A stretch of 62,823 nucleotides of DNA, counting the filler, from Collodictyon triciliatum (Eukaryota), in NCBI GenBank assembly GCA_043381765.1. It is 40 parts of 40 records of this genome, joined end to end, with 100 filler letters (N's around TTAATTAATTAA, not from the genome) between each part and the next. Parts side by side here need not be neighbours in the genome. Positions count along the whole stretch, not along the records: positions 25,319 to 26,797 come from JBHJMP010010964.1; 39 more parts are not named here. One strand, 5' to 3'. Both the position numbers and the translations under genes were made by a program. The notes beneath the pieces were generated by a model. That model ran no database searches and was not told where the DNA came from. It saw only the letters and a program-made list of their open reading frames with translations. Below, piece by piece: positions 17,638 through 26,998 of the stretch; the stretch's first letter is position 1; every line of letters starts with the position of its first letter.

Positions 17638-18705
17638 TTAATTGTGATGTTCACCAAAGACATAAACGGAGAAGGATGGGTCTGTCTGGGGTGGCGGTTG
17701 GGAGACGTGAGGGGGCCTGGGGTATTTCGGCGAAGGAAGGCCGTTCTCCTTACAGTATTTCTTGACCCACGGAGCAATGGCTTTTTGAGGGCGGCTGACG
17801 ATGTCCAAGAATTTACCATGGTTGTCATGCTCGAGGTAGTAATCAAGGGTGATGGTGTAGTTTGGGTTTCTGGTCTGAGAAGGGCCATGATGGTGAGGAG
17901 AGGTCTGAAAGAACGTTAGATTAGACGTTTGTGGATTGTAAGGAGAACTCGTGTGTGTCCGCATCTGATTGCCCTTGTCTGGTGGATAGTGCCCACGGTT
18001 CATGTTTTGGTAGGATGAGGAGGGAGTGGAATACCCATACTCACTACAACAGACACGAGAGCATCTAAGCGCCGGTGCAATACCACAAAAGGCAAGTAAA
18101 AAGACTATGCTGCATGCCAGGCCGCAGTAGAGGCAGATGGGGATATTTGTAGTGTGAGGCCCGTCCATGGGAGCTGTCATAATTGTGTAAACCGGAGGCA
18201 GCGGGGAATCCTGAGGCACGGCCATCAACGCCTGTTCAATTTTTAATAAGCTGTTAACCGTGCTGATTACCCCAGGAATGACAAAGGTCGGCAGGACACA
18301 TCGCAGTGAATGCAAACGAGCTTCTGTCCATATACTCATGACCCCCAGTATTAAGGCCAGGTTTGAACAAAGTGAAATAATTGCCCCCGTGCGCGCTGCT
18401 TGCAAGTTGTTCTTTATGTCAAGGCACCAATCGGCGCCACATTCATCGTATTCCACCCACTCTTCTGTTTTATAAACTCTTTTCACATAGTCCCCGTCCA
18501 CAATCATATACGTAGTGTTTTTGATTTGAAGGCGCATTTTTTCCAGTTCATATGTAGTCGTTACGTTAGCGCTCCACAACCCACCTTCCAAGGGTCCTAC
18601 CTCGGACGTTCCCCATTCATGAAGCCCAACTGCTGCGCTGAAAAATGCGATGGTTGACAAATACATAAAGACTGTTATACAAGTAAGCCTGCCTTTCTTT
18701 GTCAT
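17638..18705 (-). CDS. Intronless 355 aa tetraspan membrane protein, PMP22/claudin-superfamily-like
   Basis: About four hydrophobic segments. The first loop has W...GLW...C....C...LQAAR, the claudin ECL1 signature. Long cytoplasmic tail. Confidence 0.6.
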   Translation of the reverse strand: MTKKGRLTCITVFMYLSTIAFFSAAVGLHEWGTSEVGPLEGGLWSANVTTTYELEKMRLQIKNTTYMIVDGDYVKRVYKTEEWVEYDECGADWCLDIKNNLQAARTGAIISLCSNLALILGVMSIWTEARLHSLRCVLPTFVIPGVISTVNSLLKIEQALMAVPQDSPLPPVYTIMTAPMDGPHTTNIPICLYCGLACSIVFLLAFCGIAPALRCSRVCCSEYGYSTPSSSYQNMNRGHYPPDKGNQMRTHTSSPYNPQTSNLTFFQTSPHHHGPSQTRNPNYTITLDYYLEHDNHGKFLDIVSRPQKAIAPWVKKYCKENGLPSPKYPRPPHVSQPPPQTDPSFSVYVFGEHHN

Positions 18706-18822
18706 CTCTTGGTCGTGAGGGCGTCCCTGTAAGGTGTCGAATCAAGATAACATATTGATAGACTCTTCAGTGAATGAATGAACGTTTTCTTGGGTTTTTT
18801 TTTTGTTTTTTGTTTTGTTTTG

Positions 18823-20355: not shown

Positions 20356-20578
20356 GGTATGTATTGACCTCGATTCATACATACATACATACATACATAC
20401 ATACATACATACATACATACATACATACATACATACATACATACATACATACATACATACATACATACATACATACATNNNNNNNNNNNNNNNNNNNNNN
20501 NNNNNNNNNNNNNNNNNNNNNNTTAATTAATTAANNNNNNNNNNNNNNNNNNNNNNNNNNNNNNNNNNNNNNNNNNNN

Positions 20579-21023
<445 letters not shown>

Positions 21024-24000
21024 TCAAAGACTCGTCGTTCTGAGAAAGATGGGACTGATTTATATTTTTTTAATCATACGGTATCCAATTTATATGCAAT
21101 ATTGCTTTTTTACGTGTTTTGTTGACAATTATAGCAAAAAATAATCATTTTTTTATATATTCCATACTTGTAGTTCTGGTAGTCTTTCACAGCAGGAAGT
21201 CCAAAAAAGGGCAATTGGCAATCACAAACAACCAACGCTTGCCGCTTTCCCACCCGCCGATTTTGTAATGAGGTGTATGTAATCGTCCTCATTTATATCT
21301 GGCATTACTTTGCACATCCCAAGTAATGTTCAATTATACCAAATACAATAGTAAAATACATTATAATTAAGTCAACAAACAAAAATTACTTTTCTCTGCG
21401 CCGACTATCCGAAACAAGTCCCATCGCGCAGAACGCATCCCATATGTAAAAATGATAAGTTCGCCTATTGAAAATAGTAATCAGCATTAAATTTTAATGT
21501 GTTTACCCCTTTCCATTAAAATCTGAATTATATGAGATTTCTATTCCGCTGTATATGGTCATTCAGTTTGCAGGCATTCTTGTCATGGTCTAAAATTACA
21601 GAATCGACAATGTAAAGTGTGGTGGATGTTTCCTCTCATTCCACACAAAAGTGATGAGCTCTACCATCATGATGGAGCTTCAATTTTCACGAATTTTTTA
21701 TTTTTCTAAAATCACAATCATGGGTGGAATATATGATAATTGGGTATTCGTAATGGTGTGCATCATTTGTGCAATATGTTCATGCTGATTATAAAAAATA
21801 TATGATCTCCCGTGAAGCAACACAGGGTTGGAATCACGGCATTTCCTTCTATGATGAAGATGATTAAATCAACTTGAAAAAAATTGTGGGATACGACGTT
21901 GCGGCGAACAAACGAAATGTCCAACATTTAGAGTGCAAGTAAATGGGCATTATGATTCGGGGTTGGGTTGCTGTATTGGGGTTGCTATCGAAGAAAAAAT
22001 TGGGGCTCTAATTTTTTTCATATCCAATTAAAAAATTATATGTACGCGATGAGATAAANNNNNNNNNNNNNNNNNNNNNNNNNNNNNNNNNNNNNNNNNN
22101 NNTTAATTAATTAANNNNNNNNNNNNNNNNNNNNNNNNNNNNNNNNNNNNNNNNNNNNTTTTTCTTTTTTCTTTTTTCTTTTTTCTTTTTTCTTTTTTCT
22201 TTTTTCTTTTTTCTTTTTTCTTTTTTCTTTTTTCTTTTTTCTTTTTTCTTTTCCTACATCCATTTTCAAGCGCGACACAAAGCAGGAAATGGACAAAACT
22301 CTGATCTCGCGCACACACCCAACGGTTTGGCTCTTTTGGTGGGCAAAGCAGAGACGAACCAGCACGTCGGCGGATTTGTGTGGATAACTCCAAGCACGAC
22401 TCTTTGCGCAAGCACAACCGTGAATGATTGGATGAGCTGAGCCATAAAGGTAGATGCGGCTATTCGGCTCTTCTTTCTTGGCTGCACATCAGCACAACAG
22501 AACATTCTTTTCATGCGTGCGATTGTGATGGCAGTAATGAACCATCAGCGAACCAAGAAAATGCTGTCAAATGGCACGTTTTCGATTGCAATCATAAGCG
22601 CTCATGTTCATATAGCATCCGTAGATAGTCATGAAAAGTGAATTAGGTTCTCTTTCATCTTTTTTTTATTTAATTTTAGAAGCTATTTATTCATTTAAAG
22701 GGGGCTTGAAAAATGAACGAGAGGGAAGCACACCGCCTAGAGAGCAAATGTTTCTGACAATTTACACTCGCATGGTGCAGAAATGATTTTAGAAAATTGT
22801 ATTGCGTTTGTGTCACAAGAAATGGCAATAAATTAATTCAAAGATTTAATTATGACTGCTCCTCTTTTGTATTTGCGTTGGTGGGTATCTGCATCATATC
22901 CAATATGTTTTCTTTTCAACACAATACACGGCTTATCAACTCATTCCTTTATCATATACGGACATCTAATAATCCTCAAATGCGTCACGACTCCTTTTGT
23001 ACAGCATTGATTTCTTCACAGTTAAAGTCCTTTGAATGAAGGTTTATCAATTATTGGAAATATTGGTTATGGTATATATGACTTCATGCTATCTAGTATG
23101 TTGGCTTTAAAAACAATCAAATGCAACGCAAAAGTCGATGAGAGGAGAGCACAGAAATTATGTGAGTTTTTTTTCCTTTATTCGATTCAAAGATTGCTAT
23201 GTTGTTCTTAATATATTCATACAGTCAATGGCTAACCTCATTTCGTCATCTCTCTCAGATTCGATATCCTTGGGTTTGACTGCTGGTGAGTCTGCTGGAC
23301 CCGACTGACCATCCCGACTTGAGCTTGCCTTCAATACTGTCCAATTTTTACGCACCAGTTTAAAGACACGTGCATGAATAATATTGTGCGTATATCATTT
23401 ACAAGGAATGTCAAAAGGGCGTTTTTAGGGTTGGATTTATTGGTGAACAAACATTTATCGGCCGACTTTGAAGACATGTTTGGGAAATATCCAGGTAGGT
23501 TAAAATATGCAATAGTAATTGAATTTAAAGTGTTAGTTTTTTGTTTGTTTTTTTGTTTGTTTTTTTGTTTGTTTTTTTGTTTGTTTTTTTGTTTGTTTTT
23601 TTGTTTGTTTTTTTGTTTGTTTTTTTGTTTGTTTTTTTGNNNNNNNNNNNNNNNNNNNNNNNNNNNNNNNNNNNNNNNNNNNNTTAATTAATTAANNNNN
23701 NNNNNNNNNNNNNNNNNNNNNNNNNNNNNNNNNNNNNNNAGAAAAAAGAAAAAAGAAAAAAGAAAAAAGAAAAAAGAAAAAAGAAAAAAGAAAAAAGAAA
23801 AAAGAAAAAAGAAAAAAGAAAAAAGAAAAAAGAAAAGACGGGGTTCTTCGTTTATTGTGTGAATTGTTTATGCCTTAACTTCCCTCACTCTCCTTCGCAA
23901 CCCTCGAATCGCACCGCGCCAATCAGCCCGATACAAAATATACGGCGACATGATTTAACCGGCCGATCATTAGAGACAAAATGAACATATTCACAGCCCC

Positions 24001-25218: not shown

Positions 25219-26112
25219 NNNNNNNNNNNNNNNNNNNNNNNNNNNNNNNNNNNNNNNNNNNNTTAATTAATTAANNNNNNNNNNNNNNNNNNNNNNNNNN
25301 NNNNNNNNNNNNNNNNNNCTTTTCTTTTCTTTTCTTTTCTTTTCTTTTCTTTTCTTTTCTTTTCTTTTCTTTTCTTTTCTTTTCTTTTCTTTTCGGTCTC
25401 GTTCGGCCTGTAAATGGATAAACTTCATACAAATGTTGTGACGAACTTGGTTTTATCCCTTTCAAGCCACAACACTTTTTATACAACGAAAGTGTACCCA
25501 CATATATAGCAGTATATTGCACAGAGGCAACCATCGAATTTAATCTGGATGACAAAAGCAAGAGCTTTGGTGAATCCAAAAAACAACCTGAATCATACAA
25601 TAATATGATTAGTATATATAATAATGCTTAAAAAAAAAAACTTAATAATCTCATTCTATTCCTGTAACTAGCTTATATTATATTATTCATTTATGTAATA
25701 TTAAAACTCAAAAATTCAAAAAATACAAACAAGCCCTTGCCTTGACCCAGACAGAACCCAATCTATAAATCTGCCACCAAACATGCATTCCAAAAAAGCA
25801 TACTATCCACACTTGCGGCGGTAATCATGTTGTTTGGGGCCGATATGTTGACTTTCAGTCGCAATGGCTATACAGCCGTCCTTTCGAACTAAGCAAATCG
25901 ACTCAGCGTTTTGTCTCAAATCACTTGTAAAAAACTTTAAAAACTTTGTGTGTTTGTTTGCCACAATGTGCACATTTTGAAAGTCTCAGTAGATGCTTAA
26001 TTATACATAAATTGATTTTATGCATTTTTTATTTTATTAAATTGACTAAAGTTTTATTAAAATTGAAAACTCGATAGTTTTGTAAAGGAAAAAGTAAAAC
26101 AAAGACTTTCAG

Positions 26113-26644
26113 ATGAAGAAAAGAAAACGCCTTGAGTCTGAGAATCCAAAGTCTGTGAAACCAGACTATCGAAATGTGAAAACATCTCTAAAGTCTATTA
26201 TAAGAATGCGGATGACTATGAGAAAATTAACGATACGGGTTTATTGCGTCATAATTTGGTTACCATCACTTATATGTTTGCAACATGTTACATATTGAAA
26301 TCACAACAACTCCAAACAATCAATGAAATGTTTTTTTTTAATGCTTTAAAGACAGTCAGAATAGTTTCACAAGATAGACCCGCAGTTTGAAAAAAAAACC
26401 AGATATGAGGGATGACATGATGGTTTTTTATCTCTATGATTTTCTATTCCTTTTGACCCGAGAAGAATGCTTTCCGTTGGTTGGATTGTCTCATGTGTTA
26501 CCGTACTTGGCGAAGAAAATGTTAGCAGCTTATCATAATAACATGAAGGAACATTTTGCAAAGAGGTTACTGCGCTTTACAAATCAAACAGTACCTAAAG
26601 ATGAGAATATGACGGAAGGTATTAAAAAGGCAGAGTTACGAAAG
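26113..26644 (+). pseudogene. Fanzor1-like (eukaryotic TnpB homolog) N-terminal region, two frameshifts, cut off by a LINE insertion
   Basis: Joined frames give MKKRKRLE...YRNVKTSLKSII/KNADDYEKINDTGLLRHNLVTITYMFATCYILKSQQLQTINEMFFFNALKTV.../...GLSHVLPYLAKKMLAAYHNNMKEHFAKRLLRFTN. This is colinear with Fanzor1 N-termini as I recall them (SpuFz1 KTSF...LKFYIL...INYLTVSMMTNLKVNVQEHFMQMLLRYIN). No RuvC motifs are visible. Confidence 0.75.
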
Positions 26645-26797
26645 TTTTTTTTTCCTTTATTCGATTCAAAGTGTAGCGAGGTTATGCCATACAAAGGGGC
26701 GGGATGGGAGCGCATGGGAGAAAGCAAACGCGAGTAGGAGAAGACACTACCGTGGAGAGGGTAGCACTGGAAAGAAGTCAGTGATAGCGAGTTGGTC
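26645..26797 (-). mobile_element. 3' UTR and poly(A) end of LINE subfamily A
   Basis: 26734-26797 matches 33209-33272 (one mismatch), just downstream of the RT ORF stop. On the minus strand it ends TTGAATCGAATAAAGG(A)n. Confidence 0.88.
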
Positions 26798-26897
26798 NNN
26801 NNNNNNNNNNNNNNNNNNNNNNNNNNNNNNNNNNNNNNNNNTTAATTAATTAANNNNNNNNNNNNNNNNNNNNNNNNNNNNNNNNNNNNNNNNNNNN

Positions 26898-26998
26898 GCA
26901 AAACCAAAGGGAAACGTGGTTTTTGTGCAAAACCAAAGGGAAACGTGGTTTTTGTGCAAAACCAAAGGGAAACGTGGTTTTTGTGCAAAACCAAAGGG
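26898..26998. repeat. 29 bp minisatellite GCAAAACCAAAGGGAAACGTGGTTTTTGT x ~3.5 (cut by contig start)
   Basis: Direct tandem copies; internal AAAACCA/TGGTTTT dyad. Confidence 0.9.

What the first reader, a model, noticed from the sequence alone, without database searches (positions are those of the whole stretch)
26113..26797. Fossil Fanzor1-like RNA-guided nuclease gene interrupted by a LINE
Seen: three frames join into an intronless ~175 aa peptide with a basic N-terminus, KTSLKSII, KINDT..RHNLV..TY.F...YIL and YLAKKMLAAYHNNMKEHFAKRLLRF. It stops at the poly(T) of an antisense LINE-A 3' end at 26645. Known: this motif order characterises the N-terminal part of Fanzor1, the eukaryotic TnpB-derived OMEGA nucleases carried by transposons; I am comparing from memory. 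Inferred: this genome hosts a Fanzor family, possibly with intact copies, and this copy decayed and was hit by a retrotransposon. The ORF track hides it as two short ORFs.
Basis: partly seen in the sequence, partly recalled or inferred. Interest (0 to 1): 0.8.

Follow-up and report, generated by a model that had tools for sequence, protein, structure and literature searches.

The report
Dead Fanzor1 nuclease gene stub

Summary
Three reading frames (26113-26202, 26202-26387, 26390-26644) tile residues 1-30, 31-93 and 96-174 of a 648-aa public protein, P0039. The matches are 25/30, 34/63 and 46/79 identical, with E = 3e-13, 3e-19 and 3e-28.

P0039 and a second full-length relative, P0008, match the three solved Fanzor1 structures (SpuFz1, GtFz1, PpFz1) at E = 1e-23 to 1e-36. 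Both keep the RuvC D-E-D triad and a CxxC...CxxC zinc finger. The third window piece hits only GtFz1 (E = 0.0017) and PpFz1 (E = 0.031) among 177,635 PDB sequences.

Homology stops at 26644. A T9 run follows, then 142 nt whose last 64 nt are 63/64 identical to the start of another contig that encodes an antisense reverse transcriptase. The LINE claim therefore holds.

Caveats:
- The window is a chain of 40 unlinked ~1.5-kb contigs.
- The feature's contig ends at 26797, and no catalytic part, omegaRNA or right end is present.
- No whole genome was available.

Contigs from other public runs show the stretch is multi-copy, and most copies lack the first frameshift. Verdict: a new member of a known kind, of low interest.

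The parts
26113..26202 (+). Piece 1 of the fossil Fanzor1 ORF (frame 1, codons 1-30). It holds the start codon, the basic MKKRKR N-terminus and the KTSLKSII motif.
   Evidence: 25/30 identical to P0039 residues 1-30, E = 3e-13. Its KTS aligns with K25 of the SpuFz1 WED domain, using the alignment (chain offset 394) and PMC10432273 passages.
26201..26202 (+). First frame break: one base is missing relative to other copies.
   Evidence: Pieces 1 and 2 overlap by one base. In laid contigs one extra base stands behind 26201 in 7 contigs of X6 (depth 118 of 140.9) and 2 of X4 (37.9 of 88.7). The remaining depth agrees with the window.
26202..26387 (+). Piece 2 (frame 3, 62 codons), holding KINDTGLLRHNLVTITYMFATCYIL...ALKTV.
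   Evidence: 34/63 identical to P0039 residues 31-93, E = 3e-19. It tiles the family alignment A1.
26382..26390 (+). Second frame break (loss of one base), just before an A9 run at 26390-26398.
   Evidence: The frame 3 codon GCA ends at 26384 and the frame 2 codon AGT starts at 26384. P0002, P0038 and P0039 read through this place in one frame. No indel was listed here among the rows shown (33 rows were not shown).
26390..26644 (+). Piece 3 (frame 2, 85 codons), the REC-lobe part with LSHVLPYLAKKMLAAYHNNMKEHFAKRLLRF.
   Evidence: 46/79 identical to P0039 residues 96-174, E = 3e-28. There are 20 hits at E <= 1e-3 in 1.84e9 representatives. Its only PDB hits are GtFz1 at 0.0017 and PpFz1 at 0.031.
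26645..26653 (-). T9, the short poly(A) tail of the antisense LINE. This is the breakpoint of the Fanzor ORF.
   Evidence: Homology to P0003, P0038 and P0039 ends at 26644. LINE-tail contigs of other runs start to match at 26645-26650 with unrelated sequence before them. Three X6 contigs leave the window at 26643 and run on A-rich, reading L-K-K as the relatives do.
26654..26797 (-). 3' UTR of the LINE (antisense), running to the contig end.
   Evidence: 26734-26797 is 63/64 identical to 33209-33272. The RT ORF on that contig stops at 33271-33273. Summed contig depth here is about 10 times that over the Fanzor part. The first 18 nt with a T-run recur at 23167-23192 (26/26) and 56467-56490 (22/24).
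33209..34685 (-). Separate contig holding the body of the same LINE family: reverse transcriptase, itself split over two frames.
   Evidence: RVT_1 at E = 1.4e-10 for 34322-34684(-). zf-RVT at 2.7e-07 and RVT_1 at 1.5e-4 for 33271-34548(-). It is not physically linked to the Fanzor contig in the assembly.
25711..26112 (+). Tentative upstream non-coding part of the repeated element (left flank or 5' UTR). It includes an 89-nt AT-rich segment (25988-26076) that other copies lack.
   Evidence: Contigs of X4 and X6 cover it at 85% or more. One contig in each run joins 25987 directly to 26077. One X6 contig starts to match at 25711 after 255 unrelated letters. Depth rises from 25696 on. The left boundary rests on one contig and is weak.
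26798..26897 (.). Artificial linker (N runs around TTAATTAATTAA), marking the contig boundary.
   Evidence: There are 40 matches to the 12-mer in the window. 39 of them sit in the linkers that split it into 40 pieces, and one lies inside a piece.

Best explanation
The stretch is a dead, 5'-terminal remnant of a Fanzor1 gene. It keeps codons 1 to about 177 of roughly 648.

The intact ancestor was a transposon-borne, omegaRNA-guided double-strand DNA endonuclease of the TnpB/Cas12 lineage. It had four parts:
- a basic N-terminus, probably a nuclear import signal;
- an N-terminal WED strand (KTSLK), which in SpuFz1 touches the start of the guide-target duplex;
- REC helices (YL..M..AY.NN.KEHF), next to the residues that read the TAM in SpuFz1;
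- further on, a RuvC D-E-D site with a CCCC zinc finger, and a 3' omegaRNA.

What the calls show: the homology, the colinearity, two one-base frame breaks, and the end of homology at a LINE 3' end.

What is inferred: a non-LTR retrotransposon inserted in antisense after codon 177 and separated or removed the remaining 72% of the gene. That part held every catalytic residue and the guide RNA, so this copy can neither cut DNA nor make a guide.

The copy belongs to a multi-copy family. That family is a distinct branch (46% identity or less to the next cluster) of the DUF8286 (PF26935) type of Fanzor1, whose other known members come mostly from giant viruses and metagenomes.
For: **Colinear homology of all three frames to P0039.** 25/30, 34/63 and 46/79 identical; E = 3e-13, 3e-19 and 3e-28. 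tblastn gives the same order for P0008, P0012, P0019, P0020 and P0038, as does alignment A1.

**Relatives are Fanzor1.**
- P0008 against the PDB: SpuFz1 8gkh 9.2e-37 over residues 14-607, PpFz1 7.2e-34, GtFz1 7e-16. These were the only 3 hits at E <= 1.
- P0039 against the PDB: GtFz1 2.1e-28, PpFz1 2.7e-24, SpuFz1 3.7e-23. These were the only 3 hits at E <= 0.01.
- The window piece directly: GtFz1 0.0017 and PpFz1 0.031, the only 2 hits at E <= 10.

**Catalytic residues in the relatives.** Four of four full-length relatives keep D364, E555, D604 and C562/C565/C587/C590 in P0039 numbering. In the alignment these D-E-D positions fall on chain residues 777, 935 and 1000. Those are SpuFz1 D383, E541 and D606, named as metal-binding or catalytic in PMC10432273 (passages).

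**LINE.** T9 at 26645; a 63/64 overlap with a contig carrying RVT_1 (1.4e-10) and zf-RVT (2.7e-07) on the minus strand; and tail depth about 10 times higher with many different upstream flanks in other runs.

**Multi-copy family.** 339 contigs of X4 and 322 of X6 were laid at 85% or more over all 30 bins. Most depth at 26201 carries one extra base. Three X6 contigs run on past 26643.

**Family placement.** All 120 listed relatives of P0039 carry precomputed PF26935.1, and the next best is 46% identical. The Atlas names PF26935 as DUF8286, and its nearest clusters are 92-100% viruses, mostly Nucleocytoviricota.
Against: - The session's Pfam copy gives no hit for any piece, nor for P0039. P0008 and P0041 reach only sub-threshold Cas12f1-like_TNB, at 0.0089 and 0.0011.
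- The direct PDB hit of the window piece is weak (0.0017) and covers 38 residues. Membership therefore rests mainly on transitive homology.
- No RuvC, zinc finger, omegaRNA or transposon end is in the window. tblastn of 21 relatives finds only this locus.
- The Fanzor-LINE junction is seen only in this short assembly contig. None of the contig pieces shown bridges it (665 pieces were not shown).
- The contigs laid come from coded organisms that may not be the window's species.
- Contigs cannot give copy number.
- The host organism is unknown.
Confidence: 0.9

Rival explanations
1. The fragment is a piece of an integrated giant-virus genome (an endogenous viral element) rather than of a cellular DNA transposon. 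The Fanzor1 gene would have arrived with viral DNA and decayed in place.
For: The Atlas's nearest clusters to P0039 are 92-100% viruses, mostly Nucleocytoviricota. Many relatives sit on contigs of 30-150 kb, and one is named 'Transposase, viral metagenome'.
Against: Hundreds of variant contigs cover the stretch and its upstream flank in two coded organisms, as expected of a dispersed repeat. The P0039 group is at most 46% identical to the other clusters. A high-copy LINE has inserted into it. No other viral gene is on the 1.5-kb contig. The two readings do not exclude each other, since giant-virus Fanzors are themselves transposon-borne.
Confidence: 0.1
2. The two frame breaks are assembly or sequencing errors. 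The 5' part of the gene would then be intact up to the LINE, or the LINE junction itself would be a chimeric join.
For: The contig is a 1.5-kb short-read scrap that ends in repeats. The second break lies beside an A9 run. Most other copies have one more base at 26201. No bridging contig for the junction was shown.
Against: At 26201 part of the depth in independent runs agrees with the window: X4 50.8 of 88.7 and X6 22.9 of 140.9. The first break is not in a homopolymer. The two sides of the junction share no long word that could cause a chimeric join. Even with both frames intact the ORF would still end at the LINE.
Confidence: 0.07
3. The peptide belongs to an unrelated protein family, or is a host gene that merely shares a helical motif with Fanzor1.
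For: There is no Pfam hit. The direct PDB hit is weak.
Against: Relatives that match the window at 54-83% identity over all three pieces continue into a complete Fanzor1 body with D-E-D and a zinc finger, and match three solved Fanzor1 chains over nearly their full length.
Confidence: 0.02

Closest known systems
P0039 group (P0039 648 aa, P0038, P0040, P0002, P0003): unnamed public proteins of the DUF8286 / PF26935 type
   Same: 54-83% identical over the three window pieces, with the same start (MKKRKR...YRNVKTSLKSII) and the same order of motifs. P0002 is itself an ORF call on another frameshifted copy.
   Different: P0039 is full length with D-E-D and a zinc finger. The window copy stops at codon 177 and has two frame breaks. 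The organisms of these records are not known to me.
Fanzor1 of Guillardia theta, Parasitella parasitica and Spizellomyces punctatus (PDB 9cer, 9cf0, 8gkh; PMC10432273, PMC11423790)
   Same: Homologous over the whole protein through P0008 and P0039. The window's LSHVLPYLAKKMLAAYHNNMKEHF aligns with GtFz1 LSHVLAYSIDNLLTAYKNNIEAHF. These are omegaRNA-guided dsDNA nucleases with WED, REC, RuvC and NUC domains (PMC10432273 passages).
   Different: Identity is only about 20-30% outside the motifs. The solved proteins are active enzymes with known TAM and omegaRNA, none of which can be seen here. For PMC11423790 I saw only the search listing and the start of the abstract.
Partial and 'ghost' Fanzor loci of Spizellomyces punctatus (42 loci, 19 of them full length; 134 ORF-less loci) and Fanzor-LINE associations of clade Fanzor1c
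   Same: Multi-copy families with many truncated or ORF-less copies are the normal state (PMC10432273 passages). Fanzor1c is reported near LINE, CMC and Mariner/Tc1 elements (PMC10530073 passages).
   Different: Here the LINE is an insertion that breaks the gene, not a carrier. The clade (1a-1d) of this family was not determined. The supplementary tables of both papers, which list hosts and clades, were not seen.
TnpB of IS200/IS605 (ISDra2) and Cas12
   Same: Same RuvC-plus-zinc-finger nuclease lineage. P0008 and P0041 show sub-threshold matches to PF07282 Cas12f1-like_TNB.
   Different: TnpB and Cas12 are prokaryotic, with a much smaller REC and no N-terminal basic extension. The surviving window part (extended REC and N-terminus) is the Fanzor1-specific part.

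Membership tests
Fanzor1 (eukaryotic/viral TnpB-derived omegaRNA-guided nuclease) | Sequence homology to experimentally characterised Fanzor1 proteins | tested here: met
   Direct: the window piece 26390-26650 hits only GtFz1 (0.0017) and PpFz1 (0.031) in the PDB. Transitive: P0039 and P0008 hit SpuFz1, GtFz1 and PpFz1 at 3.7e-23 to 9.2e-37, and the window matches P0039 at 3e-13, 3e-19 and 3e-28.
Fanzor1 (eukaryotic/viral TnpB-derived omegaRNA-guided nuclease) | RuvC catalytic triad D-E-D | tested here: not met
   That part of the gene is absent from the window: tblastn of 21 relatives finds only 26113-26707. It is present in 4 of 4 full-length relatives as D364/E555/D604, aligned to SpuFz1 D383/E541/D606. 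The window copy is a member by descent, not a functional member.
Fanzor1 (eukaryotic/viral TnpB-derived omegaRNA-guided nuclease) | CCCC zinc finger in the NUC/TNB domain | tested here: not met
   Absent from the window. Present in 4 of 4 full-length relatives as C562, C565, C587 and C590.
Fanzor1 (eukaryotic/viral TnpB-derived omegaRNA-guided nuclease) | omegaRNA encoded at or behind the 3' end of the ORF | not testable with these tools
   The 3' end is not on the contig. Rfam finds nothing on 25319-26797 at E <= 1. No DNA of close relatives could be fetched.
Fanzor1 (eukaryotic/viral TnpB-derived omegaRNA-guided nuclease) | Location inside a transposon with defined ends | tested here: inconclusive
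   The upstream flank from about 25711 is repeated together with the ORF in other runs, but the boundary rests on one contig. The right end is missing, so no inverted repeat can be sought. No second copy is in the window.
Fanzor1 (eukaryotic/viral TnpB-derived omegaRNA-guided nuclease) | N-terminal nuclear localisation signal (present in about 60% of Fanzors per PMC10530073) | tested here: inconclusive
   The sequence starts MKKRKR, conserved in P0008, P0019, P0038 and P0039. No NLS predictor was run. The literature basis is passages read.
Pfam PF26935 (DUF8286) | Match to the family model above its threshold | not testable with these tools
   The session's Pfam copy returns nothing even for P0039, although all 120 listed relatives carry precomputed PF26935.1. 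The model is apparently not in the local library.
Non-LTR (LINE) retrotransposon, for the tail 26645-26797 | Reverse transcriptase ORF followed by a 3' UTR and a poly(A) tail | tested here: met
   RVT_1 (1.4e-10) and zf-RVT (2.7e-07) lie on the minus strand of the contig whose first 64 nt are 63/64 identical to 26734-26797. The ORF stop is at 33271-33273. T9 is at 26645-26653.
Non-LTR (LINE) retrotransposon, for the tail 26645-26797 | Target-site duplication flanking the insertion | not testable with these tools
   The 5' side of the LINE and the far flank are not on the contig.

The most novel reading that the evidence does not exclude
The host of this window appears to be a freshwater eukaryote: 151-nt metagenome contigs match parts of the stretch with 0-1 differences. 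It may carry a high-copy and possibly still active cellular branch of the DUF8286-type Fanzor1, a type otherwise known almost only from giant viruses and metagenomes. P0039 (648 aa, all catalytic residues kept) would be a living member. That would document a virus-to-host or host-to-virus transfer followed by a burst in a nuclear genome, and would offer a new compact natural nuclease to test.
Probability: 0.3. Interest if true: 0.45.

Novelty: new member of a known kind. Interest (0 to 1): 0.25.

Why it matters
It matters little on its own. Fanzor1 genes, their truncated copies and their links to other mobile elements are well documented: 3,655 unique Fanzors in 22,497 assemblies, with up to 122 copies per genome (PMC10530073, passages read).

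Three things give it modest value:
- It shows that ORF tracks hide such fossils behind one-base frame breaks.
- It flags an uncharacterised branch of the DUF8286-type Fanzor1 in a nuclear genome.
- It points to an intact-looking 648-aa relative that could be tested as a natural RNA-guided nuclease.

Tried and rejected
- **Pfam and PHROGs on the pieces.** Nothing meaningful: SelB-wing_2 at 0.006 below its cut-off, and phrog_22822 at 0.087.
- **Word-indexed search with piece 2, 'longer' proteins.** No hit.
- **Whole-genome search.** No genome is held for this window.
- **Earlier notes of the scan.** None for this genome or sequence. A word search gave only Fanzor fossils from other genomes.
- **In-window copies.** None of the Fanzor part. 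The output was dominated by microsatellites.
- **Related loci.** The metagenome scan gave one distant locus, L001 (21% identity), which I did not pursue. The viral scan gave none.
- **Rfam on the contig.** No match.
- **Sequencing runs.** No RNA holder is listed. All holders have small shares of 0.14 or less. The 'RNA?' label of X4 and X6 is a guess, so nothing is said about expression.
- **Skips seen in laid contigs.** None has GT..AG ends, so they were not read as introns.
- **Host taxon.** The Atlas search with the LINE RT gave mixed taxa (Chordata, Basidiomycota, Mucoromycota), so no call was made.
- **Joined or mended reading.** None was made. The three pieces were always searched separately by reference.
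- **Structure prediction, fold search and complex prediction.** Not run, because sequence matches to solved Fanzor1 structures were already decisive.
- **Script.** They returned no answer and were repeated.

Full report
**What the window is.** The 62,823-base window is not one piece of chromosome. The 12-mer TTAATTAATTAA, flanked by runs of N, occurs 40 times. The linkers built on it cut the window into 40 pieces of 1266-1486 bp, sorted by size. Many pieces end in microsatellites. The finding lies in one such contig, 25319-26797 (1479 bp). Its end coordinate, 26797, is simply the contig end, and neighbouring 'context' in the window is unrelated DNA. No whole genome is held for the window, and the scan has no earlier notes on it.

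**The observation.** The quoted peptides are there.
- Frame 1 from the ATG at 26113 reads MKKRKRLESENPKSVKPDYRNVKTSLKSII up to 26202.
- Frame 3 reads 62 codons from 26202 to 26387 (KNADDYEKINDTGLLRHNLVTITYMFATCYIL...ALKTVRIVSQDRPAV).
- Frame 2 reads 85 codons from 26390 to 26644 (KKKPDM...LSHVLPYLAKKMLAAYHNNMKEHFAKRLLRF...KKAELRK).
- Pieces 1 and 2 overlap by one base at 26202. The frame 3 codon ending at 26384 and the frame 2 codon starting at 26384 overlap in the same way. Each break is therefore the loss of one base.
- The first break is not in a homopolymer. The second lies just before an A9 run (26390-26398).
- A T9 run starts at 26645.

**It is not chance.** phmmer of piece 3 against 1.84 billion representative proteins gave 20 hits at E <= 1e-3. 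The best were P0002 (5.9e-30, 75% identity) and P0003 (8.5e-25). tblastn of the 21 proteins then in hand against the window hit only this locus, and several proteins matched frames 1, 3 and 2 in that order. In a MAFFT alignment the three pieces tile columns 1-207 of the family without overlap.

A word-indexed search with P0003 found a closer full-length relative, P0039 (648 aa):

| Window piece | P0039 residues | Identity | E-value |
|---|---|---|---|
| 1 | 1-30 | 25/30 | 3e-13 |
| 2 | 31-93 | 34/63 | 3e-19 |
| 3 | 96-174 | 46/79 | 3e-28 |

No gap exceeds two residues, so this part has no intron.

**What the family is.** The session's Pfam copy gives nothing for the pieces or for P0039. It gives only sub-threshold Cas12f1-like_TNB for P0008 (0.0089) and P0041 (0.0011). 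The solved structures are decisive:
- P0008 (634 aa) matches the Spizellomyces punctatus Fanzor1 chain 8gkh at 9.2e-37 over residues 14-607. It also matches Parasitella Fanzor1 at 7.2e-34 and Guillardia Fanzor1 at 7e-16. There were no other hits at E <= 1.
- P0039 matches the same three at 2.1e-28, 2.7e-24 and 3.7e-23.
- Window piece 3 alone hits just two of 177,635 PDB sequences, GtFz1 (0.0017) and PpFz1 (0.031), through the LSHVL.Y....L.AY.NN...HF block.

Four of four full-length relatives keep D364, E555, D604 and C562/C565/C587/C590 in P0039 numbering. In the alignment the D, E and D fall on chain residues 777, 935 and 1000. With the MBP-fusion offset of 394, which I derived from H21/T22/K25, these are SpuFz1 D383, E541 and D606. 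The paper names these residues as coordinating the two magnesium ions and as catalytic (PMC10432273, passages read).

By the same alignment, the window's KTS corresponds to SpuFz1 K25 of the WED domain. The helix before YL..M lies where SpuFz1 Q129, Q130 and N133 read the TAM. This domain assignment is inference by alignment.

All 120 listed relatives of P0039 (of 243 at E <= 1e-10) carry precomputed PF26935.1. The best apart from P0039 itself is 46% identical. The Atlas names PF26935 as DUF8286, and its nearest clusters are 92-100% viruses, mostly Nucleocytoviricota.

**The LINE.** Homology to P0003, P0038 and P0039 ends at codon K (26642-26644), where the relatives continue L-K-K-A-I-F....

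After the T9 run come 144 nt to the contig end. The last 64 of these are 63/64 identical to the first 64 nt of the contig 33209-34685, on the same strand. The minus strand of that contig carries RVT_1 (1.4e-10), zf-RVT (2.7e-07) and a second RVT_1 part (1.5e-4). Its ORF stop is at 33271-33273.

So 26654-26795 is the 142-nt 3' UTR of an antisense non-LTR retrotransposon, and T9 is its poly(A) tail. The T-run plus the first 18 nt recur at 23167-23192 (26/26) and 56467-56490 (22/24).

The two contigs are not linked in the assembly, and the one mismatch means they may be different copies of the LINE.

**Evidence from other public runs.** The run search found only small shares (0.14 or less), in freshwater, lake and wetland metagenomes and in small runs of coded organisms A and B. 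I laid X1, X2, X4 and X6 at 85% likeness or more.
- X4 gave 339 contigs and X6 gave 322, covering all 30 bins. This includes the upstream flank, so the stretch is a dispersed repeat there.
- Summed depth over the LINE tail is about ten times that over the Fanzor part.
- Behind 26201 one extra base stands in 7 contigs of X6 (depth 118 of 140.9) and 2 of X4 (37.9 of 88.7). Most copies are therefore in frame at the first break, while a minority agree with the window.
- Three X6 contigs leave the window at 26643 and run on A-rich, in a reading that gives L-K-K like the relatives.
- LINE-tail contigs begin to match at 26645-26650 behind many different sequences.
- Other contigs show internal skips of 51-186 nt, so other copies are decayed too.
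- One contig in each of X4 and X6 joins 25987 to 26077, so the 89-nt AT-rich segment before the ATG is missing from those copies.
- Metagenome contigs of 151 nt match parts of the stretch with 0-1 differences.

Limits of this evidence: these are contigs, not reads. They give no copy number. None of the pieces shown bridges the Fanzor-LINE junction. No indel at the second break was among the rows shown.

**Reading.** The copy is a dead 5' stub of a Fanzor1 gene: 177 of about 648 codons, with two one-base frame breaks, cut by an antisense LINE. Everything needed for activity is absent from the window: the RuvC triad, the zinc finger, the omegaRNA and the right end (Rfam gave none).

How the ancestor worked follows from established knowledge of Fanzor1. 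It is an omegaRNA-guided, TAM-dependent dsDNA nuclease carried by transposons, with N-terminal nuclear import signals in about 60% of cases (PMC10432273 and PMC10530073, passages read).

**Rivals.** A giant-virus insertion is not excluded but is disfavoured by the dispersed, multi-copy pattern. Assembly artefacts are unlikely but were not checked with same-individual reads. An unrelated family is refuted.

**Comparison and novelty.** Fz1 is reported in fungi, protists, arthropods, plants and giant viruses (PMC10432273). Partial and ORF-less copies are common there. 3,655 unique Fanzors, with up to 122 copies per genome, are catalogued (PMC10530073). Earlier notes of this scan also judged Fanzor fossils ordinary (leads only, not tested here).

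The only unusual point is that the P0039 group is a distinct, apparently cellular and multi-copy branch of a type otherwise seen mostly in giant viruses and metagenomes. I could not determine the host organism or the Fanzor1 subclade, and I could not see the supplementary host tables of the two papers.

**Verdict.** Observation confirmed, interpretation supported, a new member of a known kind, low interest.

Noticed in passing
window 1-62823: The window is a chain of 40 unlinked contigs (1266-1486 bp, sorted by size) joined by N runs around TTAATTAATTAA. Many contigs end in microsatellites. Any reading that uses neighbouring 'context' across a linker is invalid.
   Followed up: yes
window 33271-34684 (-): The LINE copy on this contig is itself broken. 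The RVT_1 domain is split over two overlapping ORFs in different frames (34322-34684 and 33271-34548), followed by zf-RVT.
   Followed up: partly
window 25988-26076: One contig each of runs X4 and X6 joins 25987 directly to 26077. The 89-nt AT-rich segment just upstream of the Fanzor ATG is therefore absent from those copies. It is either an insertion private to some copies or a deletion in others.
   Followed up: partly
window 25435-25506 and 25742-25879: Two short upstream segments have much higher summed contig depth (about 340-750) than their surroundings in X4 and X6. They are probably separate short repeats, or the most conserved part of the element's 5' region.
   Followed up: no
P0039 residues about 410-443: P0039 has a 34-residue insertion after KEKKKY that three other full-length relatives lack. 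P0040 diverges at the same point. This may be an unspliced intron read through by the gene caller. No DNA was available to check.
   Followed up: no
window 26898-26990: The next contig starts with three tandem copies of a 29-nt unit (gcaaaaccaaagggaaacgtggtttttgt).
   Followed up: no
window 1-1485: The first contig holds near-identical direct repeats (368-667 and 1029-1328 at 95%; 1-140, 685-824 and 1346-1485 at 94-99%). They encode a repeated ORF with a cysteine-rich CSGNGVC block.
   Followed up: no
window 36362-37838 (+) and 17638-18741 (-): Long uninterrupted ORFs (526 aa across a whole contig; 367 aa) of membrane-protein character. A ubiquitin fragment lies at 20523-21023 (-). The long intron-free ORFs hint at an intron-poor eukaryote, but the host was not identified.
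   Followed up: no
window 4204-4413 and 28765-28974: A 210-nt inverted match at 94% between two different contigs, indicating another dispersed repeat family.
   Followed up: no
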